A stretch of 64,000 bases of DNA from an uncultured Nitrospiraceae bacterium (GCA_964447405.1 CAYUSP010000003.1:384135-448134), one strand, 5' to 3'; numbered from the stretch's first letter, positions 40,669 to 54,804 are shown. The notes: generated from the letters alone by a model not told the origin. Made by a program: numbers and translations.

Positions 40669-42141
40669 TTAAAAATCCAGCGGGCTCTTCAGCTCTTTAA
40701 TGGTCTTGCTCGGCACGCAGTGAGTGTAAATCATGGTGGTCCGCACATCGGCATGCCCGAGTAGGGTCTGGATCGTGCGGATATCGTAGTTGGCCTGGAG
40801 CAGATGGGTGGCAAAAGAATGACGAAACGTGTGCGTGGTTACTCGTTTTGTAAGCTGCGCTTTCTTCACGGCAATATACAGTGCGTCCTGAAATCGCGAC
40901 TCATGCACGTGGTACCGCCGCTTTTCCTTGGATGATCCGATGATTGTCAGTGATTCCTGGGGAAAGAACCATTGCCATATAAATTCCTTGGCCGCGTTCG
41001 GGTATTTCTTTTCCAATTGGTCTTCTAGAAACACGCCAGCGTATCCTGCGGCAAGGTCGTCAGCATGCTGTTTTTTCACGAACGCTCGTTGGGCGAGCAA
41101 TTCAGGCGCTATCCTGTTCGGCAGGGGCACTGTTCGGCTCTTACCGCCTTTTCCCTTAATGGTGAGCAGTCCCGAATCGAAATTAAAATCCTTCACACGC
41201 ACTTTCACCGCTTCAAAGCGACGCAAGCCACAGCCGTACTGCAGCTTGGCAATGAGCTGATAAGGCTGTCCCAGTCGTGCAAGAACCTCCTGTATCTCAT
41301 CGCGTGATAGCACAACAGGAACATAGGTGGATTTCTTCGCTCGTGGAATGTCCTTATGATCGCCGAAATCTCTTTTGAGGATGTGCCTGTACAGAAACAG
41401 CAGGGCATTAAATGCGAGATTCTGCGTCGACGAGGACACCTTGCAGCGCACCGCGAGATAAGTAAGGTAACTCTTCACGTCCTGCGGCGAGAGCTGCACC
41501 GGATCTTTATGTGACAAATAGCACTGGAATTTCCTGGTCCAGTTCGCATAATGCTGCAGCGTTTTCTTGGAGTAATGCCTCATCTTGATCTCATCTACAA
41601 GCAGACTGATGATAGTATCCCATGCAGGATACCCTGACTTTCTCAGGCAGCGCCAATCATCATACCGCCCTTGGCGACGCTCGCTGCTTCCAGTAGAGGT
41701 TGGAGAACCGGGCGGTTCGCACATCATAACGGCATCTTTCGTTGCTGCCGATAGCAACGAGCCTTGTTCACGCGTCTGCTCGGAATTACCTCGAACAACC
41801 GCATTATTAACCCTGCCATCACGAATCGATGAAGGAGCAGTCTGTTGCTTTCGTTGAGCAGCGAAGAATAGGGATACTGAGGACGCCGCCTGCTCCACCA
41901 GCACTTCTGGCTGCCCCTTGGATCGGAGTTTTTCAGAGAACAGCCTGACTTGAACCGATCTTTCCTCTGGCGGTGAATACTTTGCCTGAAAATCCAGGAA
42001 ATACCTGATCCATTTCCGGTATTCATTACGCGCAAACAGAGGAATATTGTGCGTTTTTAGAATTTCATCAAAACGAGCGAGGATTTCTGGAGGTATGCCC
42101 TTCATATCGTCGTCCTTTTGTTTCCTATCAGATAACTGCAC
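40669..42141 (-). CDS. intI: Integron integrase (tyrosine recombinase) with N-terminal extension / duplicated SAM-like domain
   Basis: Box I LQYGCGLRRFEAVKVRVKD, IntI-specific insertion (QLEKKYPNAAKEFIWQWFFPQ...RRYHVHESRFQDALYIAVKKA, cf. IntI1 [21 protein letters not shown]...RRHHMYDQTFQRAFKRAV), Box II HTFRHSFATHLL, LLGHADVRTTMIYTHCV; divergent from an attC-bearing array. Confidence 0.9.
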   Translation of the reverse strand: MQLSDRKQKDDDMKGIPPEILARFDEILKTHNIPLFARNEYRKWIRYFLDFQAKYSPPEERSVQVRLFSEKLRSKGQPEVLVEQAASSVSLFFAAQRKQQTAPSSIRDGRVNNAVVRGNSEQTREQGSLLSAATKDAVMMCEPPGSPTSTGSSERRQGRYDDWRCLRKSGYPAWDTIISLLVDEIKMRHYSKKTLQHYANWTRKFQCYLSHKDPVQLSPQDVKSYLTYLAVRCKVSSSTQNLAFNALLFLYRHILKRDFGDHKDIPRAKKSTYVPVVLSRDEIQEVLARLGQPYQLIAKLQYGCGLRRFEAVKVRVKDFNFDSGLLTIKGKGGKSRTVPLPNRIAPELLAQRAFVKKQHADDLAAGYAGVFLEDQLEKKYPNAAKEFIWQWFFPQESLTIIGSSKEKRRYHVHESRFQDALYIAVKKAQLTKRVTTHTFRHSFATHLLQANYDIRTIQTLLGHADVRTTMIYTHCVPSKTIKELKSPLDF

Positions 42142-43244: not shown

Positions 43245-43307
43245 GATTTTAACCTGCGCCTCGACAGCGCCGCGCTAAAAAGCGGCGCGTCAGGCGCGTG
43301 GTTAGTT
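43245..43307 (+). mobile_element. attC site 1 (family A)
   Basis: tTTTAACCTGCGCCTCGACAGCGCCGCGCTAAAAAGCGGCGCGTCAGGCGCGTGGTTAGTT. Confidence 0.75.
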
Positions 43308-43339
43308 TTTCATTTTTTAAACTTACTGAGGGTGTGTAC

Positions 43340-44605
43340 ATGCGACTACTATCTAGTCTTTTAATGGTAATCATTAGCATCTGTGCGCAACAAGTCGCGG
43401 CCTCTGAGTCGCTTACCTGGGTTGGGCCTATTACGGTAATATCTGACAAATTTGAGCAATCCGGCGGAATATTTGGGTACACTCATACTCTCGACCAAGG
43501 TGATTGTTGCTGCGGTGGGCCAGCTACAGAAGATCGGTATCCAGATCAAATCAGGGTTGATGAAAAAGGCAATATCGCTGTCGGCGATAGATGGCATCAC
43601 ATGCACCCCGATGCAAAAATTCGTGTTTTCAATTCAACTGGTAAACTCATGTCATCATTCTCACAAACGAAAGAAGGGTGTACAAGCGGAGGCTATCTTT
43701 GGCCGGGGCACATGCAATTGCGAAACAACAAGATAATAGTAGAAACGGGAAACTGTGCTCAAGTATACAATTATGACGGCAAGTTGTTATGGCATCTCGG
43801 TCGAAGTACTAATAGTTATCCGGAATTAAAGATGGTTACAGAAGACAGAATAATTTTTAGAAAATATCTTAAAGACCCTTTCGGGAAACTAGAGTCAGAG
43901 CGCAAGGATATTCAAGCCGGGTGGTTAATATATAGCTTAGACGGAAAGCTGATTGAAGAGAAATTGAACTTTGAATTACCGCAACGAAAAGAAGGGGTCA
44001 ACGTCGTCGATGGATCAAGAGTCTATTCAAATGTTCTAAAAGCGACCGGCCGTTATGGTTTCAGAATCGACAAAAACAAGAATTTAATAGTTTTTAGAGT
44101 CAATGAAAAACCTGACGATTATGAACAAATACACTCGTTTCCTGCTGGGACACTTGATATTTATGATTTATCTTCGAAATATATTTATACGATTGTATTA
44201 CCACAAAATGAGTATTCACAAAACAGATATTGTGGGGAGGGCGCATTTGCAGGTAAAGATGTAATAGCTGAATATGGCGAAGCTAAAGAAGTCGATATCA
44301 ATGGGAATATCTATCTCACCTTATTCCTTCCAACGGAACTCAAGATTATTAAATGGATTCCTTTATCCTTAAATAATCCTCTGCCAGTAGATACAATTTC
44401 TAATCTAGATAAGAAAGCGTTGCGCATTCTAAGAAATGAAATTTATGCTCGAAAAGGTCGAAAGTTCGAATCAAAAGATCTTGCTGATTTATTTTCAAAG
44501 CAGCCATGGTACACTCCGATAGATAATTACAGTGATCATTTATTATCGAAAATTGATAGGGACAATATTGATGCAATATTCGAAATCGAGCGAAAGAAAA
44601 GATAA
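43340..44605 (+). CDS. Cassette ORF: secreted protein with C-terminal YARHG-like domain
   Basis: Signal peptide MRLLSSLLMVIISICAQQVAASE; C-terminal NEIYARKGRKFESKDLADLFSKQPWY resembles the YARHG domain; GDCCCGG motif. Confidence 0.55.
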   Translation: MRLLSSLLMVIISICAQQVAASESLTWVGPITVISDKFEQSGGIFGYTHTLDQGDCCCGGPATEDRYPDQIRVDEKGNIAVGDRWHHMHPDAKIRVFNSTGKLMSSFSQTKEGCTSGGYLWPGHMQLRNNKIIVETGNCAQVYNYDGKLLWHLGRSTNSYPELKMVTEDRIIFRKYLKDPFGKLESERKDIQAGWLIYSLDGKLIEEKLNFELPQRKEGVNVVDGSRVYSNVLKATGRYGFRIDKNKNLIVFRVNEKPDDYEQIHSFPAGTLDIYDLSSKYIYTIVLPQNEYSQNRYCGEGAFAGKDVIAEYGEAKEVDINGNIYLTLFLPTELKIIKWIPLSLNNPLPVDTISNLDKKALRILRNEIYARKGRKFESKDLADLFSKQPWYTPIDNYSDHLLSKIDRDNIDAIFEIERKKR

Positions 44606-44613
44606 ATTGAAGA

Positions 44614-44674
44614 TTTACTAACCAGGCGCTCGACGGCGACGCGCCGAGGTCGGCGCGTCAGCGCCGCGTTAATC
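44614..44674 (+). mobile_element. attC site 2 (family A)
   Basis: TTACTAACCAGGCGCTCGACGGCGACGCGCCGAGGTCGGCGCGTCAGCGCCGCGTTAATC. Confidence 0.75.
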
Positions 44675-44704
44675 ACGATATATAACAAGGTTCAGAGGTA
44701 ATTC

Positions 44705-45151
44705 ATGTCAGAACATCCTTTCAACTGTCCTAGCTGTAAGCAAACATACCCAATTTTCAAGTACAGTATCGGGATGAGCGACATCCTCGAATTGCGTTGC
44801 AGTAATTGTGCAACGTCGTTACATATCGATTTATATGATCCAATAATGCTCGACCTTTATAAGAAATACGGTCAATATACAGGCGGGTTCTTCGAGAACC
44901 TATACAATTCATTAAAGCCTTGTCGTTGTGGTGGCCAATACCTCGCCGCAGCTGCTTATCGTTGTCAAAAATGCAACATTGCTGTCTCATTGGACGAAAT
45001 AAAAAAGCAGATTGGTTATAAAGGAAACGGTACTCCCGGAATAGCAATGGCCAATATAATCAATTCATCTGATACGAAGGATAACATCTGGAAAAATCCG
45101 GAGGACATCAAACCGATAAAGCGATGGTGGAAGTTTTGGCAGAAAACTTAA
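44705..45151 (+). CDS. Cassette ORF: Cys-rich (4x CxxC, double zinc-ribbon-like) hypothetical protein
   Basis: CPSCKQ...CSNCAT...CRCGG...CQKCN. Confidence 0.5.
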   Translation: MSEHPFNCPSCKQTYPIFKYSIGMSDILELRCSNCATSLHIDLYDPIMLDLYKKYGQYTGGFFENLYNSLKPCRCGGQYLAAAAYRCQKCNIAVSLDEIKKQIGYKGNGTPGIAMANIINSSDTKDNIWKNPEDIKPIKRWWKFWQKT

Positions 45152-45153
45152 AA

Positions 45154-45212
45154 TATTAACCTGGCGCTCGACAGCGACGCGCCAAGGTCGGCGCGTCAGC
45201 GCCGTGTTAGTT
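45154..45212 (+). mobile_element. attC site 3 (family A)
   Basis: TATTAACCTGGCGCTCGACAGCGACGCGCCAAGGTCGGCGCGTCAGCGCCGTGTTAGTT. Confidence 0.75.
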
Positions 45213-45227
45213 TGAGATGGAGCATAA

Positions 45228-45854
45228 ATGAAATTTATAGAATATCGCGGACAATTTCGTCTTCTTTTCCCTCGCTATGACGAGCTTGTACTATTTACGA
45301 TGAGTTTAACCTGCCTACTTCTTATGATCACTGGCGTACTATCGCATATACCAGAAATTGGAGCGGTATCCCTGAGACAACTTGATCCTGGATTTTTTGT
45401 TCCTTTCATTTTTATAGCAATATTCATAGCCGGCCTCGTGTTGTCCTTATACCATGCATTCGTTGATCGCCCTAAAACAGAGATCGAAAAATCGTTTATG
45501 TTGTTTTTTGCCGTCTTAGTTAACGTCTTCAGCGGGTTCATGGGTAGTGGTTACAGCCTTACTACAGCCAGTGGTTGGTTTATAGTTTTTCCCGTTATCA
45601 ATATGATCAATAGCATGATTCTTCTCTTTATGTGGCGATATGGGTACTTTGACGAAACAAGTATTAGCGATCAACAGGCATCAAGAGGTCAAGTCATGCT
45701 TGCAGGGACAATAGTTTTAATTCTGTTTTATTTATGTCACGTTGTTTACGAATTCTTATGGATACAAACGCTATCTGTTTGTCTTGTTTATTCAATAAAC
45801 TTTATTAGACTGATTGAATCATTGATTTTTCGACCCGTACCGATTTCTAAATGA
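45228..45854 (+). CDS. Cassette ORF: polytopic membrane protein, unknown function
   Basis: 208 aa with about 6 hydrophobic helices. Confidence 0.5.
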   Translation: MKFIEYRGQFRLLFPRYDELVLFTMSLTCLLLMITGVLSHIPEIGAVSLRQLDPGFFVPFIFIAIFIAGLVLSLYHAFVDRPKTEIEKSFMLFFAVLVNVFSGFMGSGYSLTTASGWFIVFPVINMINSMILLFMWRYGYFDETSISDQQASRGQVMLAGTIVLILFYLCHVVYEFLWIQTLSVCLVYSINFIRLIESLIFRPVPISK

Positions 45855-45864
45855 CTGCATAATG

Positions 45865-45925
45865 ATTCTAACCATTCGGCTCGAGAGGGTCGCGAAAACC
45901 GCGCCCCTCAGCCGAGCCGTTATCT
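45865..45925 (+). mobile_element. attC site 4 (family B)
   Basis: TTCTAACCATTCGGCTCGAGAGGGTCGCGAAAACCGCGCCCCTCAGCCGAGCCGTTATCT. Confidence 0.7.
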
Positions 45926-45984
45926 TCATAGATTGTTCTACGTGACTGACGAATTCTGATTTTGCATAAGGAAAAATTCAGCTT

Positions 45985-46875
45985 ATGGTGCACCGTACAG
46001 CGTTCATTGTCATTTTGACCCTATTCTTATTTCCTTTCGCCGTACACGCCCGAGATGATTTCAAAATGGCCAATCTTGTTTATCCTTCCGAGAATCAAAT
46101 TACCCAAGCCCAGCTGACCCCACTAACAGCAGTAGAGTTGAAAAAAGAAATTCAGAACTCAATCGAGTTGCCAACCGAAAACTGTTTAGATCACGTCAAA
46201 ATGAAAATCGAGGACGATTCTATTGAGGAGTATCTATGGGGTTTTTATAAGTATGATTTTTCAGGCGATGGAATCGATGATTTGATATTTATCAGCTATT
46301 GTGGTGGTGAAGAGTATCAAAACTTTATTTGGATAAAGAAAGACAACAAATTCTATTACAGTGGCCTCCTATGGGGTACGATTGTCAAATTGTATCGTGC
46401 CCAAGACTTGAAAGCCTTATCGGTCGTAACGCGTGGCGGCTGGTGCTGTAGCGGCTATGTCGGATACATTAACCTGTATACACCTTCAAGCAATAATCAA
46501 GTCACAAAATATTCCTTAGAGAAAAGCGTCCGAGAATTCGGTGGCATTACATTGCCGGATAAAAGAATTCCCGCTAAGCGGTTCGTTGTGAAAAACGATA
46601 AATACAAACTGCGGGAACAGCCTATTATTAATGATAAGTATGATGAGCAGGAGAGTGAATTTGAACGCAGACCTGTTTATGGGAATACTTTGGCAGAATT
46701 CGTTAAGGGAAGCAAAGGCGAAGCCATTGCTGAAAAAACTGACGAAACCGGGCGGGTTTGGTGGTTCGTCATCATGGACCCAGATGCTAAGGCCACCTAT
46801 AATAGATTTTACGGCGATCAAAAAGCTTCAAAAGCCGGCTGGATGAGTTCAAGGTTTTTAGAAATGACGAAGTGA
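45985..46875 (+). CDS. Cassette ORF: hypothetical secreted protein
   Basis: Signal peptide MVHRTAFIVILTLFLFPFAVHA; 296 aa; stop overlaps attC. Confidence 0.5.
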   Translation: MVHRTAFIVILTLFLFPFAVHARDDFKMANLVYPSENQITQAQLTPLTAVELKKEIQNSIELPTENCLDHVKMKIEDDSIEEYLWGFYKYDFSGDGIDDLIFISYCGGEEYQNFIWIKKDNKFYYSGLLWGTIVKLYRAQDLKALSVVTRGGWCCSGYVGYINLYTPSSNNQVTKYSLEKSVREFGGITLPDKRIPAKRFVVKNDKYKLREQPIINDKYDEQESEFERRPVYGNTLAEFVKGSKGEAIAEKTDETGRVWWFVIMDPDAKATYNRFYGDQKASKAGWMSSRFLEMTK

Positions 46876-46931
46876 TAACCTGGCGCTCGACAGCGACGCG
46901 CCAAGGTCGGCGCGTCAGCGCCGCGTTATAT
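46873..46931 (+). mobile_element. attC site 5 (family A)
   Basis: TGATAACCTGGCGCTCGACAGCGACGCGCCAAGGTCGGCGCGTCAGCGCCGCGTTATAT. Confidence 0.75.
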
Positions 46932-46962
46932 GGTAATAAAAAATACCGACTCCGGAGATGAA

Positions 46963-47238
46963 ATGGAATTAACAAAACAAGAGCGAAAGTTCGCTGAATT
47001 ATCAACTAAACGGTATCGCGGTTTATTGTATCGAAACAGCCAATTGATCGGATGGGTCGGTGTTGTTCTCTTTGGGCTCGGCTTACTGCGGATATTGCCA
47101 GTATCTGCTACCGTTCAAAAATTACTTCTTCAAGGTGGTTTTTTTCTAATCGTAATGAGTACAATTATGTTCGCGATGACTATTATAAGTAAGCTTTACA
47201 CCCGTAATCAGGAACTTGATCGATCGCGACCGGATTAA
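46963..47238 (+). CDS. Cassette ORF (first of a two-gene cassette): small 2-TM membrane protein
   Basis: GGAG RBS; MELTKQERKF...two hydrophobic helices. Confidence 0.45.
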   Translation: MELTKQERKFAELSTKRYRGLLYRNSQLIGWVGVVLFGLGLLRILPVSATVQKLLLQGGFFLIVMSTIMFAMTIISKLYTRNQELDRSRPD

Positions 47239-47275
47239 GACGTAATGGTAAAGAAAACTTTTGCGGGAGGGAAAT

Positions 47276-47737
47276 ATGACCACTAAGAACGTTCGTGCAA
47301 TCGGTTTTTTACTTCTCCTGATATTTATTATCTCCCTCTACGCCTTATATCTGCTTACCCAGGACAAAACTCCTGAAAATTACCTTTTCTTTGGGTTTAC
47401 TTCTCTAACGTTTATCATCATATATTCAATCAGCATTTTAAATTACAAAATCACAGGTTCTAGTATCGGTATCGAAGTTGAACAAGCACGACAGGAGATC
47501 ATGACTTCAAAAAAGGAAATTGAGACACTAGCGAATACCTTGATCAAGGTGAGTTATGTCATTGCAGATGGGTCTAGCAGGTTTGGCGGCATGCCAAAAG
47601 AACATCAAGATAAGATCAGGGAATATCAAAATTCAATAAAAACATTTCTTGATCAAAACATTGACGAGGAAGTCAAGAAGACCATCTCTGGTTTAAATGA
47701 AGCAATAGACCTGCGAATTAATAAAGACAAGAAATAG
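47276..47737 (+). CDS. Cassette ORF (second of two-gene cassette): membrane-anchored coiled-coil protein
   Basis: GGGAGGG RBS; MTTKNVRAIGFLLLLIFIISLYALYLL then a helical soluble domain; no attC between it and the previous ORF. Confidence 0.45.
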   Translation: MTTKNVRAIGFLLLLIFIISLYALYLLTQDKTPENYLFFGFTSLTFIIIYSISILNYKITGSSIGIEVEQARQEIMTSKKEIETLANTLIKVSYVIADGSSRFGGMPKEHQDKIREYQNSIKTFLDQNIDEEVKKTISGLNEAIDLRINKDKK

Positions 47738-47744
47738 CGAGATA

Positions 47745-47804
47745 CAATAACCTGCCGGTCCACAGCGACGCGCCAGAAGGCGGCGCGTGACCGGCGCGTT
47801 AGGT
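47745..47804 (+). mobile_element. attC site 6 (family A)
   Basis: CAATAACCTGCCGGTCCACAGCGACGCGCCAGAAGGCGGCGCGTGACCGGCGCGTTAGGT. Confidence 0.75.
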
Positions 47805-47813
47805 AGGTAAAAT

Positions 47814-48353
47814 ATGAAGAAAAGAATAATATTCTTATTTGCCGCAATCCTTCTTATTTCTTCTTACAGTCAGGCCGAATCTCGTATAAACTTTCCCACA
47901 TATATCCCTGGTAAATATAGACCCTGTCTCGAAGCGTGGCTATCAGCCCATCCATCATATCGTATTGCGATCGAAACAGATTGCACGTATTGCGATAACA
48001 GCATCAAAGACATGAGAACGAAACCTTATGGGGATTGGAAACCTTTACCTGATTATCAACCCTATTTTACAGTCGGTGATTTCAATTCGGATAGCGTTGA
48101 TGATTTTGCCGTTGCAGTAATAGACGAACTCAAAAGAGATAAGAAATTCCGCATCCTGGTCTTTAATGGCCCTTTCAATACATCATCTCTTTCAAAGCCG
48201 GCTTTTGTATCTGGTCCGATCGATTTAAGCAACGCAGGCATGTTCTACGGAGGCCCTCGACCGAAACCATGGAGACTATTAGCTGGGCCGTTTGAGTCTG
48301 AAGGAACCTTGCTGGTGCCTCAAGGAAAAACATATAAGTGGGAAAGTAAGTAG
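47814..48353 (+). CDS. Cassette ORF: hypothetical secreted protein
   Basis: Signal peptide MKKRIIFLFAAILLISSYSQA. Confidence 0.5.
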   Translation: MKKRIIFLFAAILLISSYSQAESRINFPTYIPGKYRPCLEAWLSAHPSYRIAIETDCTYCDNSIKDMRTKPYGDWKPLPDYQPYFTVGDFNSDSVDDFAVAVIDELKRDKKFRILVFNGPFNTSSLSKPAFVSGPIDLSNAGMFYGGPRPKPWRLLAGPFESEGTLLVPQGKTYKWESK

Positions 48354-48358
48354 TCTGA

Positions 48359-48418
48359 ATCCTAACACTCGCGTCGAGAGGGTCGCTAAAAAACGCGCCC
48401 CTCACGCGCTCGTTAATT
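48359..48418 (+). mobile_element. attC site 7 (family B)
   Basis: ATCCTAACACTCGCGTCGAGAGGGTCGCTAAAAAACGCGCCCCTCACGCGCTCGTTAATT. Confidence 0.7.
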
Positions 48419-48456
48419 CTGGATAGCATCTCATTTTCATCGCAAGCTTAAAATAT

Positions 48457-48885
48457 ATGGAAATAATAAACGGCAAAATATTGACCCGCGAACAAATAGA
48501 TTCGATTAGTTCAACAATCCGAAAAGCTTATTTAGCACTTGTATGGTTTTCTGGGATCGATCTTGCCTTTAATATTTTCAAAGTTGCTAATCCTCTTTCA
48601 CACGGCGGGATTATGGAAGCGGGGCTAAAATTCGCTGAATTTATCATCATATATCGTGGTTTAAAGATTCGAGCATCTTGGCTCATTCCTTTAGTGTTAA
48701 TCTCCTCGGTTTATACGCTGTTTAGTGCTTTCTTTATTTCAATGGAGCCTGCAAAAGACATTGCGGAAATTATAGCTAAACCAGTAGGCATGTTGTTGGT
48801 CGTTTTTTCTGTATATCAACTTATATTTTTTTCAAAGACTGAAGTCAGGTCATCATTTGGTGCGAAAGGATTTAATGTTTTTTAA
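48457..48885 (+). CDS. Cassette ORF: hypothetical membrane protein
   Basis: 142 aa, about 3 hydrophobic helices. Confidence 0.45.
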   Translation: MEIINGKILTREQIDSISSTIRKAYLALVWFSGIDLAFNIFKVANPLSHGGIMEAGLKFAEFIIIYRGLKIRASWLIPLVLISSVYTLFSAFFISMEPAKDIAEIIAKPVGMLLVVFSVYQLIFFSKTEVRSSFGAKGFNVF

Positions 48886-48912
48886 CTGCTCTGATCAATA
48901 AAGTAATATGAT

Positions 48913-48970
48913 AATTAACCTGCGGGTCGAGTGAGTCGCGAAAAGCTCGCTCCTCACCCGCGTGTTAGTG
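48913..48970 (+). mobile_element. attC site 8 (family B variant)
   Basis: AATTAACCTGCGGGTCGAGTGAGTCGCGAAAAGCTCGCTCCTCACCCGCGTGTTAGTG. Confidence 0.7.
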
Positions 48971-49087
48971 CTTAATAATGCCCATTCCAACTTGGACAGA
49001 TTTTTTGTTAAATTCAGAGTGTGGTTTTCGCTATAAACTTTTGAATTTGCACTTGGTCAGCTACGAATTCATTTGTGGGGCTATAAC

Positions 49088-49513
49088 ATGAAAATAATAC
49101 TTCTATTGCTATTGACTTTTTCGCTATTCACATCGATTGCATTATGTGCAGGCAAAATAGGTCAGTTAGGCCTGTTTGATTCATCTTATGATCGTACTGT
49201 TTGGCAATATGTGGAATCTTCAGGGGGTGTAGACATATTTGAGCATAGGTTCTTAAAGAACTGTAATTTATATTCAGCGGTCATTACGGAAACATTTGAG
49301 GAAGAGGCTAAGAGGACTGAAGCTTTATTCGAAGGCAAGACTTACTACGTAACGAAAGGCCTTAAAGATGGCAAATTAATTTCATTATACTATTGTAAAA
49401 AAGGTTCTCCTTTTCAATGTCTTCGGGTATATGTTGCCAATGTTAGCGATATCAATGCATGCACCCAAGCCTCGGAAAAGGTAATTATCGACTACGAGCG
49501 AAGAAATAAATAG
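49088..49513 (+). CDS. Cassette ORF: small secreted Cys-containing protein
   Basis: Signal peptide MKIILLLLLTFSLFTSIALCAG; a 118-bp spacer lies between attC8 and the ATG. Confidence 0.5.
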   Translation: MKIILLLLLTFSLFTSIALCAGKIGQLGLFDSSYDRTVWQYVESSGGVDIFEHRFLKNCNLYSAVITETFEEEAKRTEALFEGKTYYVTKGLKDGKLISLYYCKKGSPFQCLRVYVANVSDINACTQASEKVIIDYERRNK

Positions 49514-49570
49514 CCTAACGTATAGTTCGAGAGGGTCGGGCTCGGCCCGCCCCTCAACTCGTTGTTATTT
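49513..49570 (+). mobile_element. attC site 9 (family B)
   Basis: GCCTAACGTATAGTTCGAGAGGGTCGGGCTCGGCCCGCCCCTCAACTCGTTGTTATTT. Confidence 0.7.
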
Positions 49571-49582
49571 CCGTGAGGAACA

Positions 49583-49807
49583 ATGGGTAACAGACGCGAT
49601 TCATTTCCGTTTCGATATCCTCAACTGTTTCACGAATGTTGGCATTGCCATACCGTAGGGCTGAAGCCGGGCATCCTTGATACAAAGCATGGTGATTACG
49701 GCATGCGAAAAGTATTTAAGGATGAACCAGAATTGCCGCTAAATTCTGAAGGTCTCTGTTTGGATTGCGCAGAACAATTAAAGACCAAGAAAGAGGATGC
49801 CAATTGA
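49583..49807 (+). CDS. Cassette ORF: small zinc-ribbon-like protein (CWHCH...CLDC)
   Basis: 74 aa; HECWHCH and GLCLDC motifs. Confidence 0.45.
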   Translation: MGNRRDSFPFRYPQLFHECWHCHTVGLKPGILDTKHGDYGMRKVFKDEPELPLNSEGLCLDCAEQLKTKKEDAN

Positions 49808-50169
49808 AGCAAACCAATTTTCTGAAGATCTGCTGGCACGACGGAAATATCGTCGATTTTAGATACATCTTCCCAATTACCAAAAGAGATAGGCCCTGCA
49901 TCATCATTAAAGCCGAAGTTTATGCGAATTATATTAATGCTGCTCATAGGCATTTGATCCAAATTGAATTTCCAAATATTCAAAACATAGATAAGAAGGT
50001 CAATTTTCCTGAAATTAAAGATAATGTGGTCGCAGGGTCAATCAATTACGCTAAGCCAAAAGAAATCGTAAATAGCCTTGGTACTTTTCAAGAATACACA
50101 TTCACTTTGTTTGGTGGCAAAATCAAAATCGTTTCAAACAAAGCCAAAATAAAGAAAATTATGAAATAA
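49765..50169 (+). CDS. Cassette ORF: hypothetical protein overlapping and likely translationally coupled to 49583-49807
   Basis: Open +1 frame; possible starts ATG 49765 (43-nt overlap) or TTG 49804 (TTGA start/stop overlap); no family. Confidence 0.4.
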   Translation: MRRTIKDQERGCQLKQTNFLKICWHDGNIVDFRYIFPITKRDRPCIIIKAEVYANYINAAHRHLIQIEFPNIQNIDKKVNFPEIKDNVVAGSINYAKPKEIVNSLGTFQEYTFTLFGGKIKIVSNKAKIKKIMK

Positions 50170-50222
50170 CCTGGCGCTCGACAGCGACGCGCCAAAGTCG
50201 GCGCGTCAGCGCCGTGTTGTAA
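50165..50222 (+). mobile_element. attC site 10 (family A)
   Basis: AATAACCTGGCGCTCGACAGCGACGCGCCAAAGTCGGCGCGTCAGCGCCGTGTTGTAA. Confidence 0.75.
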
Positions 50223-50238
50223 AGCAAAAGGAATCTAT

Positions 50239-50979
50239 ATGACCTATCGACAAATAATGTTATTTTTATTAGTGGCGACCCAACTTACGCTATCAAGCTG
50301 CGCTACATACTATGCACATGAGAGCATTCAAAATTTACCCAAATATGATCCTTCGAGGTTTCCCTATCTCATTGAAGGTGAATATTTAGAAGTAGCCAGT
50401 CAAGGGAATATATCATTTCAACACTACTACTTCCCGACTTTCCCATGGCCCGCATGGCATGGTCAACACATGCACTTATTTCTTTCGGAAACGCAAACAG
50501 AACCCATCGTGATTAATATGGATAAGCGCTTATCTGTAAAAGAGCCAATAATCTACTTTTACAAGGAAAGCAAGCGAACTCTCATAATAGATAAGACAAA
50601 TAGCGTCAAAAGCAAAGCACTCCTCTACGTATATCACCAGTCAGGAGAGGTGGACCTCAAAGATATTATCAAGAATACAGCCACTCAAGCTTTAGGTTCA
50701 GATAATGAAGTTCCTCTTGTGACACTTTCCTATAACAAAAATGGTGAGCAATCCATCTTCTCTGTTGGAAAGATAGTACGTCATGGCGGTTTGATTGAGT
50801 CACCTACCTTGAAGGGACTTTACATGCTTCATACTAGCCCTTATCAAAGCCGATGGAGACATCCACTTGATTATTGGCTTTATATCGTTACGGTCCCGGG
50901 CGATGTAGTTACCTCTCCATTACAACTACCATTCTGGATTTATACGTATTATCAAAACAGAGGATTGTCACCCAAATAA
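50239..50979 (+). CDS. Cassette ORF: hypothetical lipoprotein
   Basis: Lipobox LTLSSC after the N-terminal hydrophobic segment; 246 aa. Confidence 0.5.
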   Translation: MTYRQIMLFLLVATQLTLSSCATYYAHESIQNLPKYDPSRFPYLIEGEYLEVASQGNISFQHYYFPTFPWPAWHGQHMHLFLSETQTEPIVINMDKRLSVKEPIIYFYKESKRTLIIDKTNSVKSKALLYVYHQSGEVDLKDIIKNTATQALGSDNEVPLVTLSYNKNGEQSIFSVGKIVRHGGLIESPTLKGLYMLHTSPYQSRWRHPLDYWLYIVTVPGDVVTSPLQLPFWIYTYYQNRGLSPK

Positions 50980-51043
50980 GGCTAATATTATTAATCACTA
51001 TTTAGGATCGGGTAGCGAGTAAATCATAATTTTGAAACAAAGG

Positions 51044-51100
51044 ACCCAACATGGGGATCGAGAGCGGCGCGAAAGTCCGCGCCTCATCCCCGTGTTGTCA
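51044..51100 (+). mobile_element. attC site 11 (family B)
   Basis: ACCCAACATGGGGATCGAGAGCGGCGCGAAAGTCCGCGCCTCATCCCCGTGTTGTCA. Confidence 0.7.
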
Positions 51101-51122
51101 ACTCAACACAAAGGAGGTTCAT

Positions 51123-51473
51123 ATGCATTACGTCGATGGATTTGTGATACCGTTACCGAAGAAAAACCTGAAAGTATATACCCGAATGGCCAGGATGGGA
51201 AAAGAGATGTGGATGAAGCACGGCGCCATCGATTATAAGGAGTGCGTTGGAGAGGATTTGGAGAGGACGGGGGGGACGACTTTTTCACGACTGATGAAGT
51301 TGAAGCCCGGCGAGACCGTGGTTTTCTCATGGATCGTTTACAAGTCCCGGGCGCACCGCGACCGCGTCAATGCAAAGGTGATGAAAGAGATGGAAAAGAT
51401 GAGCCTGGAGGAGATGCCCTTCGACATGAAACGCATGGTGTATGGCGGTTTCAAGGTCCTCGTTGACATATAG
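51123..51473 (+). CDS. Cassette ORF: DUF1428 (YbaA-like) family protein
   Basis: AAGGAGG RBS; MHYVDGFVIPLP...GETVVFSWIVYKSRAHRDRVNAKVM...MPFDMKRMVYGGFKVLV matches the DUF1428 pattern. Confidence 0.65.
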   Translation: MHYVDGFVIPLPKKNLKVYTRMARMGKEMWMKHGAIDYKECVGEDLERTGGTTFSRLMKLKPGETVVFSWIVYKSRAHRDRVNAKVMKEMEKMSLEEMPFDMKRMVYGGFKVLVDI

Positions 51474-51486
51474 TATTTCATCACGG

Positions 51487-51539
51487 AACATAACAAGCGA
51501 GTGAGTCGCGAGGAGCACGCTCCTCACCAGCGTGTTGTC
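51487..51539 (+). mobile_element. attC site 12 (family B variant)
   Basis: ACATAACAAGCGAGTGAGTCGCGAGGAGCACGCTCCTCACCAGCGTGTTGTCA. Confidence 0.7.
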
Positions 51540-51588
51540 AGTGATAAATTTGAATATTGAAAATATGACGCAGAAGAGGGAACTTATT

Positions 51589-52011
51589 ATGCATTCACCA
51601 TCTGTATCTGTGGAAGAACTGAATGACATCCTGGCAGGCACACCATTTCTAAAGCCATATGGGTTTATTGTAAAGGCATGTGCTCCAAACGAGTGCACGC
51701 TACTTGTTCCGTTTATGCCTTCGCTCGAGCGACCAGGGGGGCTGGTCAGCGGCATGATGTTAATGGGAGCGGCGGACGTCGCAATGTGGCTTGCAATCAT
51801 GACTCTTCGGGGAACGAGTGAGCGTTGGGTTACTTCGGACATGAAAACAGCATTTCTGCGGGGTGCCAAAGAGGAAGACATCCTGTGTACGGCTCGCGTG
51901 CTCAAGCCCGGAAAGCGCAGCATGTACGGCACGGCTGAGTGTCATGGTGCAACAACTGGCCTGGTAGCTCACCATGTCCTCACATATGCAAAGATTGAAC
52001 CCGCAGGATGA
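51589..52011 (+). CDS. Cassette ORF: hotdog-fold thioesterase (PaaI/YbgC-like)
   Basis: MHSPSVSVEELNDILAGTPFLKPYGF...GGLVSGMMLMGAADVAMWLAIM is typical of PaaI-type thioesterases. Confidence 0.55.
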   Translation: MHSPSVSVEELNDILAGTPFLKPYGFIVKACAPNECTLLVPFMPSLERPGGLVSGMMLMGAADVAMWLAIMTLRGTSERWVTSDMKTAFLRGAKEEDILCTARVLKPGKRSMYGTAECHGATTGLVAHHVLTYAKIEPAG

Positions 52012-52047
52012 ATACCGCGACTCGAAAACCGCCAAAAAGAAAATAAA

Positions 52048-52110
52048 TGATAACATGCGCGTCCACAGCGACGCGCCAAAGGGCGGTATACATAAATTTA
52101 AGTTAAGAGA
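52048..52110 (+). mobile_element. attC site 13, truncated (right arm replaced)
   Basis: GATAACATGCGCGTCCACAGCGACGCGCCAAAGGGCGG then unrelated TATACATAAATTTAAGTTAAGAG; lacks the GGCGCGTGACCGGCGCGTTA half. Confidence 0.5.
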
Positions 52111-52119
52111 GGTGTCAAG

Positions 52120-52824
52120 ATGACAGATAAACAGCAATTGGATCATACTTATCACTACATAATGAAAACCTTCATAGATCGAGGCAATGCACCTCACTTT
52201 ACAGAGATAGCGAAAGAGTTTGGCGTAAACCCAGCTGAAGGCAAGAAATTGCTGTATGATTTGATGAATACGGGAATGGCAATGTGGCTTTATCCCGGAA
52301 CCGACCTAATTGCTTCATTTGCACCATTCAACAATCAGCCAACTCAATATCGCATTACTGTGGACGGACAACAAAGATGGTTTGCACAATGAGGTTTTGA
52401 AGCCCTGGCGGTCTGCTGGGCATTTCCACGAAAAGCAGTGCAGATTGACGCGCCATGTTTAGATTGCGGCGAGTCTATGAAAATCGTTGTGCGCGACGGC
52501 ATCATAGAAATTGAATCGCCTATCGGCATCCATGGATATATTGACATTCCTTTAAGTCAATGGGCAAAAAACTGGCCTTTTACGTGAAGTCGCATCCATC
52601 TCTTCCGGTCGGAAGATCATGTAAAAAACTGGTCCGACTTTCGTACAGGAACTGAAGAGGCAATTCTTCCGATCTCGGATGTCATGTCCATAATGAGCAC
52701 ACCCCGTCACAGTGCTAAATTGAGTGGTCATTACATCTCATCTGCTGCGGATTATGCGCCGCTATTTTTCCAGAGACTCAGGGAAGTAACGCGAAATTCA
52801 GAATTCTGGAAGCCCAAGTCGTAG
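52120..52824 (+). CDS. merB: Organomercurial lyase (MerB)-like protein with two in-frame TGA codons at the catalytic-Cys positions (candidate selenoprotein; alternatively a pseudogene)
   Basis: Single frame from ATG 52120 to TAG 52822-52824; TGA at 52390-52392 and 52585-52587. Translation: HTH N-terminus, ...VDGQQRWFAQ-U-GFEALAVCWAFP (MerB: RRLYAWCALDTLIFP) and ...NWPFT-U-SRIHLFRSEDHVKNW (MerB: SFCCHVHFFASVPTAEDW); U-U spacing 65 aa vs 63 in MerB. Confidence 0.6.
52402..52421 (+). ncRNA. Candidate bacterial SECIS hairpin 1 (cis-element within mRNA)
   Basis: CCCUGGC-GGUCU-GCUGGG, loop GG at +18/+19 from the UGA. Confidence 0.4.
52601..52616 (+). ncRNA. Candidate bacterial SECIS hairpin 2 (cis-element within mRNA)
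   Basis: (U)CUUCC-GGUC-GGAAG(A), loop GG at +20/+21 from the UGA; the loop GGUC is identical to the E. coli fdhF SECIS apical loop. Confidence 0.4.
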
Positions 52825-52895
52825 AGGGCAAAATCTGCCGTGTACGAATAGGGATATGTAGGTCGGGTAGAGCAAGGAGAAATCTGACACAATGA

Positions 52896-52950
52896 TCCCA
52901 ACATCGCTGTCGAGAGGGTCGTAAAAAAAGCATGCCCCTCACGGCGGCGA
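52896..52950 (+). mobile_element. attC site 14, degenerate (terminal, eroded right arm)
   Basis: ATCCCAACATCGCTGTCGAGAGGGTCGTAAAAAAAGCATGCCCCTCACGGCGGCG, then diverges (no GTTGGG core). Confidence 0.45.
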
Positions 52951-52972
52951 CGGCCCACGCTTCGCGCGTGCC

Positions 52973-53057
52973 GCTGAGCCATGCGTCTGTCCCGGCAAAA
53001 AACGCGCCGGGAGAACCAGACGCTCGAAACCAATGGCCCTGCGGGTCATGGCTCAGC
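52973..53057. repeat. Nested inverted-repeat structure at the distal end of the array
   Basis: GCTGAGCCATG ... CATGGCTCAGC (11 bp perfect arms) enclosing CGTCTG..CAGACG and CCCGGC-aaaaaacgc-GCCGGG. Confidence 0.5.
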
Positions 53058-53103
53058 TCCGGCATTAGCAGTTTCAATAATGAATATGTAAGGAGGATTA
53101 GTT

Positions 53104-53511
53104 ATGAGAAAGACCGTTATTGCCGTTTTGTTGGCCTTGTTCCTTCCGGTAGCCAGCTTTGCTGCTGACACGATGCGTGATGGATACTGGGAACTGATCA
53201 GCACCATGGAAATGCCCGGCATGCCTGTGAAAATGCCACCCACTACGACAAAGCACTGCTACACCAGGGAAGATGTTAAGGATCAGAAAAAAACCATCAC
53301 TACTGACAAAAACTGCACGGTTACCGATATTAAACAGTCTGGCAATAAAGTCACCTGGAAAATGAAGTGTACCGGCAAAAATGCCGGTGACTTCAGCGGC
53401 GAGACGGTTTACAAGGGAGGGATTGCATACGATTCAACCATGACGATGCAAACCCAGGGTCGCACAATGAATATGCAGGTTAAGGCCAAGCGGTTGGGGA
53501 ATTGTCCGTAG
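53104..53511 (+). CDS. Small secreted protein (possibly DUF3617-like)
   Basis: AAGGAGG RBS; signal peptide MRKTVIAVLLALFLPVASFA; conserved Cys pairs. Confidence 0.5.
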   Translation: MRKTVIAVLLALFLPVASFAADTMRDGYWELISTMEMPGMPVKMPPTTTKHCYTREDVKDQKKTITTDKNCTVTDIKQSGNKVTWKMKCTGKNAGDFSGETVYKGGIAYDSTMTMQTQGRTMNMQVKAKRLGNCP

Positions 53512-53544: not shown

Positions 53545-54804
53545 ATGACGAAGCACCCCCTGAAACTGTTGTTGGCGGCCCTTGCCGTAATGATGCTGAC
53601 AGCGGTGCCGTCCCCTGGCGCGCAGAAAGCGACGACCCGAACGCTGTCGAACGAGCCCGGCACATGGCGCCCATGGACCTGCGGCGGCCACTCGGCAAGC
53701 GATCTCAAGCTCCTCGGCTTCACCCAGTCCGATGCAGAAGCCTTCAAGACGCGGCTCCAGCAGATCGCCGAGATCTTCCGGAAATCGCCTGTCTGGAATC
53801 CGCCGATGGGAGTCGATCCCTCGCTCACAGGCTCGCTCTACGGTGTGTCAGTCTATCCTTCCTCCGCGAAGAAGCTGAAGAACCATCCCATTGCAGGCTC
53901 CATTATGATGGGCAGCTTCGAGCACGTTGAGGTGGTCCGGACGACAGGCGGTCGGGAACAACGGGAGCGGCACATCGGCGACGAGACCGTACACATCATT
54001 TTCAATGTGAATTTGCTCCCCAAAGGCGGCGGTGTCAACATGCTGCGCGACGATGAGGGGGAGTTTTACGAGGAGCTGGTCCGCACGGCCGACATCGGAG
54101 GGTTCCCGATCTACGGCGACATGCTGGTCATTACGAAGAATGGACAGCCCGTCTGGACGCCGGTCTCCCGGGAGCGCTACCTCAAGGCCTTCATCGCCAA
54201 GCGCCGGCCGGACGCCGCCAACGCCGAGATTTACATCGCCGATCAACAGAAGAAGCTTGATGCCTTTATCGCTCCCGACGCATCTGCCGCCCGCCAGGCG
54301 AAATACAAGGCGGCGATCGACAAGATGGCGTCCAAGGGCGCGGCTGCGGTCGAACACGAACGGCGGTACTGGGAGCGTGATGAGGCAGACAACCTGGCCG
54401 TCCTGAAGCGCGGGGCTTCCCGCGACCCGAAAGTTTCTCCCCTCGCCGGCGTGATCGCCGGCGTGAAAGCCGCCGAGGAGCAGCTGGCAGCCATGCCTCC
54501 TGCCGAGCGCAACGCACCCGCCTGCCTCCTCGACGCCGGGAGCGACATGACCAAGAGCGGTCTGGTGGCGACGGGAACGCCCAAGTGCGTGCCGCTCGTC
54601 GGAAAGAACCCCAACTTCTTTGATCAGCAGCTGCCCCGCAGCGTGCCGCAGATCATCGTCGTCAGCCGGATCCGGGCGCTCGAAAAAACGTGGAAAGAAG
54701 GCCGGCCAGGCGAGAACAAAAAGGGTTCTCTCGATCTCTGGACTACCTACGAAGCGTTCCGTCAGGCCGACTTGCAGAAGGTGGCCGACCAGATCGACCG
54801 GTGA
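53545..54804 (+). CDS. Hypothetical secreted protein (GC-rich block)
   Basis: Signal peptide MTKHPLKLLLAALAVMMLTAVPSPGA; 419 aa; local GC about 65%. Confidence 0.55.
   Translation: MTKHPLKLLLAALAVMMLTAVPSPGAQKATTRTLSNEPGTWRPWTCGGHSASDLKLLGFTQSDAEAFKTRLQQIAEIFRKSPVWNPPMGVDPSLTGSLYGVSVYPSSAKKLKNHPIAGSIMMGSFEHVEVVRTTGGREQRERHIGDETVHIIFNVNLLPKGGGVNMLRDDEGEFYEELVRTADIGGFPIYGDMLVITKNGQPVWTPVSRERYLKAFIAKRRPDAANAEIYIADQQKKLDAFIAPDASAARQAKYKAAIDKMASKGAAAVEHERRYWERDEADNLAVLKRGASRDPKVSPLAGVIAGVKAAEEQLAAMPPAERNAPACLLDAGSDMTKSGLVATGTPKCVPLVGKNPNFFDQQLPRSVPQIIVVSRIRALEKTWKEGRPGENKKGSLDLWTTYEAFRQADLQKVADQIDR

What the first reader, a model, noticed from the sequence alone, without database searches (positions are those of the whole stretch)
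52048..52950. Eroded terminal attC sites fix the thioesterase and Sec-MerB-like genes at the array end
- attC13 (52048-52110) keeps the left half of the family-A site but its right half is replaced by unrelated AT-rich sequence.
- attC14 (52896-52950) keeps the family-B left arm but loses the GTTGGG core.
- Together these would immobilise the last cassettes (thioesterase + MerB-like).
- This is consistent with old, domesticated cassettes at the distal end of a sedentary integron.
Basis: seen in the sequence. Interest (0 to 1): 0.55.

Follow-up and report, generated by a model that had tools for sequence, protein, structure and literature searches.

The report
Broken attC sites lock terminal cassettes
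At the far end of a chromosomal integron in a Nitrospirota bacterium, the last two recombination sites are broken, so a thioesterase gene and a selenocysteine-containing MerB-like gene can probably no longer be cut out; this way of fixing cassette genes is already known, here seen in a new lineage.

Summary
The window carries a complete chromosomal integron: an integron integrase at 40669-42141 (-) and 12 canonical attC hairpins from 43247 to 51540. Two defective sites follow.

- **c13 (52048-52086):** only the left half of a family-A attC. It shares 32 of 39 bases with c06, including an exact 16-mer. It has no right arm and no attC fold.
- **c14 (52896-52955):** a nearly complete family-B hairpin (32.7 bits). 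It matches intact sites column for column up to the crossover G, then reads GAC instead of GTT.

- The "unrelated AT-rich" sequence after c13 is the MerB cassette's own leader. The stretch 52087-52902 is 88% identical to a cassette in another array (L019).
- c14 keeps both arms and lacks only R'.
- c12 is also weakened.

Immobilisation of the thioesterase and MerB-like genes is well supported structurally, but it was not tested experimentally. "Old, domesticated" is only partly supported. Three related Nitrospirota loci share the flanking gene but none of these cassettes.

The breaks look like discrete deletion or junction events, not slow erosion. This corresponds to the known "fused cassette" and degenerate-attC route to gene fixation. 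The MerB-like gene is a genuine two-selenocysteine protein.

The parts
40669..42141 (-). Integron integrase gene (490 aa, with a ~170-aa N-terminal extension)
   Evidence: TIGR02249 integron integrase scores 356 bits against a cutoff of 265. Pfam finds Phage_integrase and Phage_int_SAM_4. The ORF is intact, and the L007 ortholog has the same extension.
43247..51100 (+). Cassette array with 11 intact attC sites (c01-c11) of two or three sequence families, about 40% GC
   Evidence: Alignment; bottom-strand folds of -12.8 to -23.2 kcal/mol; consensus structure with compensatory changes in 10 of 17 pairs; covariance-model scores of 60-80 bits.
51123..51473 (+). DUF1428 cassette gene
   Evidence: Pfam PF07237, E 2e-35. 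GC3 is 0.71, which is host-like.
51488..51540 (+). attC c12: weakened site. The R box is present, but the left arm pairs poorly with the right arm.
   Evidence: Fold of -9.2 kcal/mol, z -1.3, with 25 of 200 shuffles folding as well. The model alignment needs non-canonical pairs.
51589..52011 (+). PaaI/4HBT hotdog thioesterase cassette gene
   Evidence: Pfam 4HBT, E 8e-10. Homologs of 80-89% identity are widespread.
52048..52086 (+). attC c13 remnant: R'', L'' and the apical part of a family-A site. The right arm and R' are missing.
   Evidence: 32 of 39 bases identical to c06, against 6 of 22 on the right side. An exact 16-mer is shared only with c06. There is no attC fold. The model gives only 8 bits. 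The sequence is identical in the independent contig L004.
52087..52119 (+). 5' leader of the MerB-like cassette (AT-rich, with its ribosome-binding site).
   Evidence: blastn homology to L019, L020 and L025 starts at window 52087, 52094 and 52090. Supported by the alignment.
52120..52824 (+). MerB-like gene with two in-frame UGA codons (52390-52392 and 52585-52587), read as selenocysteine
   Evidence: Pfam MerB, E 1.4e-16. UGA is conserved at the same positions in L019 and L020. At the second position it is also conserved in L011 and L015, with a conserved C-terminus read through. Hairpins with a GGUC loop start about 10-13 nt after each UGA.
52896..52955 (+). attC c14: family-B site with R'' (TCCCAAC), both arms and the loop intact. 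The R' position reads GACGGCC instead of GTTGGGx. The break comes right after the crossover G (52949).
   Evidence: Model score 32.7 bits, E 7e-8. Column-for-column alignment with the L007 terminal attC and with c07, c04 and c09. The fold has no R pairing.
52973..53057 (.). Long imperfect hairpin between c14 and the DUF3617 gene (11-nt perfect arms around an inner stem). It is not an attC.
   Evidence: Inverted repeat. Fold of -29 kcal/mol, z about -3. No model or Rfam match. Unique in the window.
53104..53511 (+). DUF3617 gene with no attC. It is present in the window and L009 but absent from L007 and L008, so it is still part of the variable zone.
   Evidence: Pfam. The synteny map shows the conserved flank starting at 53525 in L007 (53530 in L008) and at 53206 in L009.
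53545..54804 (+). Conserved 419-aa chromosomal gene that marks the right border of the variable region in all relatives
   Evidence: 85-87% aa identity in L007 and L008, and 69% in L009. blastn gives 89% nt identity.

Best explanation
**What it is.** This is the distal end of a sedentary chromosomal integron in a Nitrospirota (Nitrospiria) genome.

**The c13 break.** The thioesterase cassette has lost the 3' half of its attC through a short discrete deletion. What remains of c13 (R'', L'' and the loop) now abuts the leader of the next cassette. The thioesterase and the MerB-like gene therefore form a "fused cassette".

**The c14 break.** The MerB-like cassette's own attC is structurally complete up to the crossover G. 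Everything 3' of that point is non-integron sequence (GAC... instead of GTT...).

**Why this matters for mobility.** From established integron biology:
- IntI acts on the folded bottom strand.
- It needs the R''/R' box, whose AAC/GTT triplet holds the cleavage point.
- It needs the L box, where a second monomer binds.

Neither site should be a substrate. Excision needs two working sites that flank the segment, so the thioesterase and MerB-like genes are locked in place. c12 is weakened too, so the DUF1428 cassette may be partly locked as well.

**State of the genes.** The locked genes are intact. The MerB-like gene keeps both Sec codons and its SECIS-like hairpins, so it is still under selection and is not decaying.

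**Shown:** the sequence anatomy, the lack of an attC fold, homology of the cassette to another array, and absence of these cassettes from related arrays.

**Inferred:** loss of recombination activity, the deletion mechanism, and the order of events.
For: - **Integron identity:** intI passes TIGR02249. Twelve attC sites show covariation.
- **c13:** half-site statistics, no attC fold, and 8 bits in the model.
- **c14:** 32.7 bits. It is aligned with intact sites up to the G of the core and then diverges. There is no R pairing.
- **MerB cassette unit:** window 52087-52902 equals L019 3577-4392 at 87.7% over 816 nt. In L019 it is preceded by a complete attC hairpin (-18.8 kcal/mol, with a 5-bp R box) and a different upstream gene.
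- **Experimental precedent:** a truncated attC lacking the 2L core and the whole right-hand domain (blaGES-1/aacA4) gave no separate circular forms (PMC4670013).
- **Distal gradient:** relatives also have attC-less genes between the last recognisable attC and the conserved flank gene.
- **Gene integrity:**
Against: - No recombination assay was done, so function is inferred from structure only.
- Some truncated attC sites have been reported to be excised by IntI1 (Ramirez et al., cited in PMC4670013).
- The covariance model was trained only on this array's own sites, so it may undervalue unusual sites.
- The right junction of c14 (52950-53015) is not confirmed by an independent assembly. Three Logan assemblies all break at 53016 and one breaks at 52188.
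- Where the MerB cassette starts is ambiguous. In L019 the R' lies 13 nt upstream of the point where homology to the window begins.
Confidence: 0.72

Rival explanations
1. **Slow mutational erosion.** The thioesterase and MerB-like cassettes are ancient residents. Their attC sites decayed by accumulated point mutations while the genes were domesticated.
For: - Their position is distal.
- GC and GC3 of the last three cassettes are higher than in the first eleven.
- attC quality falls in a gradient from c11 to c14.
- Relative to the L019 and L007 R' sequences, c14 differs by substitutions only, with no length change.
Against: - The left 39 nt of c13 are still 82% identical to c06, while the right side drops abruptly to chance level. 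That is a junction, not diffuse decay.
- In c14 all the arms are intact and only the bases after the crossover G differ.
- The cassettes are absent from the three related arrays.
- The MerB cassette is 88% identical to a copy in a different array.
- MerB GC3 is 0.44, which is still cassette-like.
Confidence: 0.15
2. **The sites still work.** attC recognition depends on structure and tolerates variation. c13 could use GGTATAC at 52085-52091 as a mini R' above its 7-bp hairpin, or c14 could still be recombined.
For: - The local model alignment places an R-like box at 52085-52091, with 3 of 4 pairs.
- A truncated aadA1 site has been reported as excisable.
- c14 keeps the L box and the stems.
Against: - The AAC/GTT triplet is absent at both candidate R' positions (GGT at c13, GAC at c14).
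- The folds show no R pairing.
- Scores are 8 and 32.7 bits, against 50-80 bits for the other sites.
- A comparable truncated site was experimentally inert.
Confidence: 0.06
3. **Assembly artefact at c14.** The apparent loss of R' would be a chimeric join in the source contig, at or near the attC repeat.
For: - Independent Logan assemblies of the same strain break at 52188 and at 53016. None that I could fetch spans 52189-53015.
- attC repeats caused the other breaks, at 45186 and 47766.
Against: - The window is collinear with L019 across 52087-52902, into R'' of c14.
- The c14 arms are unique rather than a repeated family-A sequence.
- The source protein set indicates a 760-kb contig.
- c13 itself is independently confirmed.
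Confidence: 0.07

Closest known systems
Fused gene cassettes of class 1 integrons (e.g. blaGES-1/aacA4; aac(6')-30/aac(6')-Ib')
   Same: - Partial loss of the first cassette's attC, with both ORFs intact.
- In blaGES-1/aacA4 the 2L core and the whole right-hand domain are missing. That is the same half that c13 lacks, and that site is experimentally inert (PMC4670013).
   Different: - In those cases the fused unit can still leave through the second cassette's intact attC. Here the second site (c14) is also defective, so the pair is fixed.
- The host is an environmental Nitrospirota chromosomal integron, not a clinical mobile integron.
Degenerate attC sites and CALIN elements as intermediates to gene stabilisation (Cury et al. 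2016, PMC4889954)
   Same: That paper proposes the same idea: very degenerate attC sites mark the step between acquisition by an integron and definitive stabilisation in the genome.
   Different: - Here the degenerate sites sit at the end of a complete integron with an intact integrase, not in an integrase-less cluster.
- Relative L009 does look like an integrase-less remnant within the 10 kb seen.
Cassettes inserted at, or recombined with, secondary (non-attC) sites (Francia 1993; Recchia & Hall 1995; cited from my own knowledge, not read here)
   Same: The product is a cassette whose attC ends at the crossover G and is followed by foreign sequence without GTT, so it cannot be excised again. 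That is exactly the anatomy of c14.
   Different: - The triplet here is GAC, which does not fit the reported GWT-type secondary-site consensus.
- No target duplicate or pre-insertion site is available to prove the event.
SaoL, the MerB-like organometallic lyase selenoprotein (NCBIfam NF040728)
   Same: - A MerB-fold protein with selenocysteine in place of a catalytic cysteine.
- It is listed among prokaryotic selenoproteins (PMC13188914, PMC9312934).
   Different: - The window protein scores 40 bits against a cutoff of 140.
- It has two Sec codons (U...U) rather than one in a CU motif.
- It has an extra ~80-aa C-terminal region.

Membership tests
Integron (complete) | Integron-type tyrosine recombinase (IntI) with the IntI-specific additional domain | tested here: met
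   TIGR02249 scores 356 bits against a cutoff of 265. The motif LEKKYPNAAKEFIWQWFFPQ is present in the translation.
Integron (complete) | Array of attC sites next to intI that fold as imperfect hairpins with an R''/R' box | tested here: met
   Twelve sites. Folds, covariation, model scores.
Integron (complete) | attI site and Pc promoter next to intI | not tested
   The region 42142-42359 was read but not analysed.
Functional attC site (applied to c13) | R'' (RYYYAAC) pairs with R' (GTTRRRY), which carries the cleavage triplet | tested here: not met
   There is no R' at the family position. GGTATAC (52085-52091) and GTTAAGA (52102) do not pair in the folds. GTTAAGA is leader sequence, homologous to AATTAAGA in L020.
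Functional attC site (applied to c13) | L''/L' box with extrahelical bases | tested here: not met
   The L' arm is absent, with 6 of 22 bases identical on the right side. The model gives 8 bits.
Functional attC site (applied to c14) | R''/R' pairing with a GTT core | tested here: not met
   GACGGCC stands in the columns where every intact site has GTTxxxx. The fold lacks an R box.
Functional attC site (applied to c14) | L''/L' box and stems | tested here: met
   The GAGGG/CCCTC and flanking stems are kept. The model alignment is full length at 32.7 bits.
Functional attC site (c13, c14) | Recombination by IntI in vivo | not testable with these tools
   This needs a suicide-conjugation assay or an inverse-PCR assay.
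Sedentary chromosomal integron | Chromosomal, at a conserved locus in related genomes, with homogeneous attC sites | tested here: met
   - The same right-flank gene occurs in L007 and L008, and L007 also has an orthologous intI.
- Family-A sites c02, c03, c05 and c10 are nearly identical.
- The left flank is not shared with L007.
Sedentary chromosomal integron | Large array (more than 19 attC sites in the IntegronFinder operational definition, PMC4889954) or presence in 100% of the species' genomes | tested here: inconclusive
   Only 12 intact sites plus 2 defective ones. Species-wide frequency cannot be measured.
Fused gene cassette | [quoted passage not shown] | tested here: met
   A c13 half-site lies between an intact thioesterase gene and an intact MerB-like gene.
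SaoL (NF040728) selenoprotein | Score above the curated equivalog cutoff | tested here: not met
   40 bits against a cutoff of 140.
Bacterial selenoprotein (MerB-like gene) | In-frame UGA conserved among homologs at a Cys-aligned catalytic position, with conserved sequence downstream | tested here: met
   - UGA at both positions in the window, L019 and L020.
- UGA at position 2 with Cys at position 1 in L011, L015 and the ~155-aa database entries.
- Read-through C-termini are conserved.
Bacterial selenoprotein (MerB-like gene) | SECIS hairpin just downstream of UGA; Sec machinery (selA, selB, selC, selD) in the genome | tested here: inconclusive
   - Hairpins with a GGUC or GGUCU apical loop start 10-13 nt after each UGA, and the sequences are conserved. 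Their fold z-scores are not significant.
- No tRNA-Sec gene lies in the 64-kb window, and the rest of the genome was not seen.

The most novel reading that the evidence does not exclude
**The two defects are scars of aberrant integrase-linked events, not random decay.**
- Comparison with L019, L020 and L007 bounds the MerB cassette within 1-2 nt at both ends: (T)TATAC... at 52087 and ...GGCG at 52949. These are the positions where IntI would cut.
- On each side the partner sequence is non-canonical: the loop of c13 on the left, and chromosomal GAC... on the right.

This would mean that attC x secondary-site recombination, or abortive cleavage followed by repair, routinely converts mobile cassettes into fixed genes at the distal end of Nitrospirota integrons. 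In this case it has fixed a two-selenocysteine MerB-like enzyme delivered by an integron.
Probability: 0.3. Interest if true: 0.45.

Novelty: new member of a known kind. Interest (0 to 1): 0.3.

Why it matters
This is a clean natural example, outside clinical integrons, of how integron-captured genes become permanent chromosomal genes.
- The decay runs in steps towards the array end: intact, weakened, half-site, core-less site, then no site at all.
- It occurs in a little-studied phylum, Nitrospirota.
- The same cassette is caught in a different, better-preserved context elsewhere.
- It shows that a selenoprotein gene, complete with its in-ORF SECIS elements, travels as an integron cassette.

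None of this overturns current models. It illustrates ideas already proposed, namely fused cassettes and degenerate attC sites as a step to stabilisation.

Tried and rejected
**Hypotheses rejected**
- **GTTAAGA at 52102 as a surviving R' of c13.** It sits at nearly the family spacing. I rejected it because it lies inside the MerB leader, which is homologous to AATTAAGA in L020 and ATATAAGA in L025. It also does not pair in the folds.
- **MerB cassette inserted into c13, with the missing right half lying after c14.** The sequence after 52949 has no GTT until about 53070, and it is not complementary to the c13 left arm. A 7-mer, GCGCGTG, shared with c06 is within chance.
- **The 85-nt hairpin at 52973-53057, or GAAAC...GTTTC at 53022-53084, as a further attC.** There is no model hit. 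The 53022-53084 fold is no better than shuffled sequence (z 0.15).
- **MerB-like gene as a pseudogene.** The conserved UGA positions, the read-through conservation and the SECIS-like hairpins argue against it.

**Searches that gave nothing**
- Rfam and tRNA scans of the window found nothing.
- I could not get independent contigs over 52189-53015. The 90-aa MerB fragment and a 99-aa antisense ORF are not on record, and one call failed on coordinates.
- The closest MerB relative, P0001 (75% identity), has no DNA available.
- Thioesterase homolog contexts (L099, L100-L102) gave no intact family-A attC from which to rebuild the original c13.
- The promoter and terminator scan around c13 gave nothing above background.
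- The sequence upstream of the DUF3617 gene shows no homology between the window and L009.

Full report
**What is in the window.** An integron integrase gene lies at 40669-42141 on the minus strand.
- It passes the curated integron-integrase model TIGR02249, at 356 bits against a cutoff of 265.
- It has the Phage_integrase and SAM_4 domains.

Downstream on the plus strand is a low-GC (about 0.40) block from about 42.2 kb to 51 kb. It holds short ORFs, most with no family match checked, separated by repeats.

I located 14 candidate attC sites, from the R'' 7-mer to the R' 7-mer, and aligned them.
- Bottom-strand DNA folds show that c01-c11 are classical attC hairpins, at -12.8 to -23.2 kcal/mol. 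Most have R-box pairing and bulged bases.
- An RNAalifold consensus of c01-c12 has 17 pairs, of which 10 show compensatory changes.
- A covariance model built from that alignment recovers the 12 training sites at 50-80 bits. It finds one more site, c14, at 32.7 bits (E 7e-8). It finds nothing attC-like beyond 52958 or elsewhere in the window.

**Checking the two sites: c13.**
- Positions 52048-52086 are a family-A left half. They match c06 at 32 of 39 positions ungapped, whereas the right-hand 22 nt match at 6 of 22, which is chance level.
- The 16-mer GTCCACAGCGACGCGC occurs in the window only in c06 and c13, with none expected by chance.
- The bottom strand folds only into a 7-bp hairpin within the left half.
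- The model sees c13 only in a local search, at 8 bits.

**Checking the two sites: c14.**
- Positions 52896-52955 align column for column with the intact family-B sites c04, c07 and c09, and with the intact terminal attC of relative L007.
- The match runs through R'' (TCCCAAC), both arms, and ...CACGGCGGCG.
- At the point where every intact site has G|TTxxxx, c14 has G|ACGGCC.
- Its fold has the inner stems but no R box.

It needs three amendments.
- c14 keeps both arms, not just the left one.
- c12 (51488-51540) is also degraded: -9.2 kcal/mol, z -1.3, with a left arm that pairs only through G-T and mismatched positions.
- The sequence that "replaces" the right half of c13 is not unrelated filler, as the next part shows.

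**What the AT-rich sequence is.** A metagenome scan with the MerB-like protein returned three close relatives.
- By blastn, L019 3577-4392 equals window 52087-52902 at 87.7% over 816 nt.
- L020 743-1394 equals window 52094-52745 at 88.7%.
- L025 matches from window 52090 onward.

Homology therefore starts exactly at the c13 junction and ends at R'' of c14. The stretch 52087-52119 is the MerB cassette's own leader and ribosome-binding site.

The GTTAAGA at 52102 looked like a surviving R' at nearly the right spacing. It is in fact part of this leader, and L020 reads AATTAAGA at that position.

In L019 the same cassette sits behind an alpha/beta-hydrolase gene and a complete attC hairpin (3500-3569, -18.8 kcal/mol, 5-bp R box). 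It is followed by a shrunken site, GCCCAAC-21 nt-GTTGAAC, that keeps R'' and R' but lost the middle.

The cassette has therefore been in at least two different array contexts. Its flanking sites have broken in different ways in different lineages.

**Orthologous arrays.** A genome scan with the 419-aa gene downstream of the array identified the organism as a Nitrospirota (Nitrospiria/Nitrospiraceae MAGs) and gave three informative loci.
- **L007** (87% aa identity) has an orthologous intI with the same N-terminal extension, family-A attC sites 96-98% identical to c03 and c05, and an intact terminal family-B attC (7711-7775, -20.5 kcal/mol). Four attC-less genes follow before the conserved gene.
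- **L008** has four attC sites, the last one intact, and then two attC-less genes.
- **L009** has no integrase within 10 kb. It does have a 16-mer fragment of a family-A left half (8020-8035) and an attC-like site at 31 bits whose core reads ATT.

None of the three carries the DUF1428, thioesterase or MerB-like genes. The conserved flank starts only at window 53525 (L007) or 53530 (L008), or at 53206 (L009). In all four genomes the variable zone thus extends past the last recognisable attC. This fits a distal zone where sites are progressively lost. It does not show that these particular cassettes are ancient.

Composition is mixed. GC3 is 0.32-0.45 for cassettes 1-11, 0.71 for DUF1428, 0.50 for the thioesterase and 0.44 for MerB, against 0.60-0.79 for host genes.

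**Mechanism.** The following comes from established integron biology, partly read here in PMC4670013 and PMC4889954.
- IntI recombines the folded bottom strand.
- The R box carries the cleavage point in the AAC/GTT triplet.
- The L box binds the second monomer.
- Excision needs two working sites around the segment.

c13 lacks R' and L', and c14 lacks R'. The thioesterase lies between c12 and c13, and MerB between c13 and c14. Neither gene can leave, alone or together.

A direct experimental precedent exists. The blaGES-1 attC, which lacks the 2L core and the entire right-hand domain, yielded no separate circular cassettes. That paper also cites a truncated aadA1 site that was still excised, so inactivity here remains an inference.

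The defects are sharp junctions rather than diffuse substitutions. At c13, one arm, and possibly the first bases of the next cassette, were deleted. At c14, divergence begins exactly after the crossover G.

The c14 pattern is what a cassette joined to a secondary site looks like. That comparison comes from my own knowledge of Francia 1993 and Recchia & Hall 1995, which I did not read here. I give integrase-linked aberrant events a probability of about 0.3. The evidence is limited by uncertainty about the true 5' end of the MerB cassette: in L019 the R' lies 13 nt upstream of where homology to the window starts.

**State of the locked genes.** The MerB-like ORF (52120-52824) has UGA at codons 91 and 156, at the positions I judge (from my recollection of the MerB sequence, not from a tool alignment) to correspond to the two catalytic cysteines.
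- Many database homologs are "155-aa" entries that stop at the second UGA and have Cys at the first position.
- L011 and L015 read through that UGA into a conserved C-terminus.
- L019 and L020 have UGA at both positions.
- Full-length JGI entries from short contigs show W at both positions. I read this as gene callers applying genetic code 4.
- Each UGA is followed, 10-13 nt later, by a hairpin with a GGUC or GGUCU apical loop. For the second UGA this is conserved in the window, L011, L015, L019 and L020. For the first UGA the sequence is conserved in L019 and L020, but the hairpin was the minimum-energy fold only in the window.

The gene is therefore a real selenoprotein, not a decaying pseudogene. 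It is related to the described MerB-like selenoprotein SaoL but is not a member of that family: it scores 40 bits against a cutoff of 140, and SaoL has one Sec in a CU motif. Its more distant homologs sit in ordinary chromosomal contexts without attC sites.

**Caveats.**
- Logan assemblies of the same strain are 100% identical to the window and confirm c13 (L004 = 47766-52188).
- Those assemblies break at 52188 and at 53016. I could not retrieve any independent contig across c14. A chimeric join or population heterogeneity at the array end is not excluded.
- The covariance model is trained only on this array.

**Verdict.** The claim of immobilisation is well supported but not tested experimentally. 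The "old, domesticated, eroded" interpretation is only partly supported. The feature is a new example, in Nitrospirota, of a known phenomenon: fused cassettes and degenerate attC sites as a route to gene fixation. I score interest at about 0.3. The integron-borne double-Sec MerB-like gene is the more unusual item.

Noticed in passing
window 52120-52824 (+); UGA at 52390-52392 and 52585-52587: The MerB-like gene has two in-frame UGA codons, at the positions I judge (from recall of the MerB sequence) to be the catalytic Cys positions. Each is followed by a hairpin with a GGUC loop. Homologs form a large family with Cys or Sec at the first position and Sec at the second. The gene falls below the cutoff for the described SaoL selenoprotein family (40 bits against 140). 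Here it is carried as an integron cassette.
   Followed up: partly
window 40669-42141 (-), residues 1-170; L007 2759-4210 (-): The integron integrase has a ~170-aa N-terminal extension that looks like a second SAM-like domain. It is conserved in the L007 ortholog. Typical IntI proteins are about 320 aa.
   Followed up: no
window 52973-53057: A long imperfect hairpin: 11-nt perfect outer arms, an inner GCGTCTG/TCCCGGC stem, about -29 kcal/mol and z about -3. It lies between c14 and the DUF3617 gene. It is unique in the window, has no Rfam hit and is not attC-like. Three independent assemblies break inside it, at 53016.
   Followed up: partly
L007 7765-8210: A perfect 221-bp tandem duplication (2.0 copies, 100% identical) starts one base before the R' core (GTTGAGG; the repeat unit begins CGTTGAGG) of the last attC in the related array. 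HigB/HigA-like genes follow it.
   Followed up: partly
L009 8020-8035 and 9114-9179: A related Nitrospirota genome has, next to the same DUF3617 and 419-aa genes, a family-A attC left-half fragment and an attC-like site whose core reads ATT. They flank DUF188-like and RsgA-like genes, and no integrase lies within 10 kb. It looks like a fossil array.
   Followed up: partly
window 51488-51540 (c12): The third site from the end is also degraded, with a weak fold and a left arm that pairs poorly. The DUF1428 cassette may therefore be partly immobilised too. That cassette has a host-like GC3 of 0.71.
   Followed up: partly
window 52188 and 53016 (ends of Logan contigs L004 and L001-L003): Independent assemblies of the same strain, from several runs, all stop at these two points on either side of the MerB and c14 region. 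This suggests a repeat or population heterogeneity at the array end.
   Followed up: no
proteins P0001, P0006, P0007, P0012 and others: Public full-length entries of this MerB-like family, from ~1-kb JGI contigs, show Trp at both Sec positions. The gene caller most likely switched to genetic code 4 on short contigs that contain in-frame TGA.
   Followed up: no
window 46930-47737 and 49583-50169: Two cassettes each appear to hold two ORFs with no attC between them (46930-47238 with 47261-47737; 49583-49807 with 49765-50169). They could be older fusions or two-gene cassettes.
   Followed up: no
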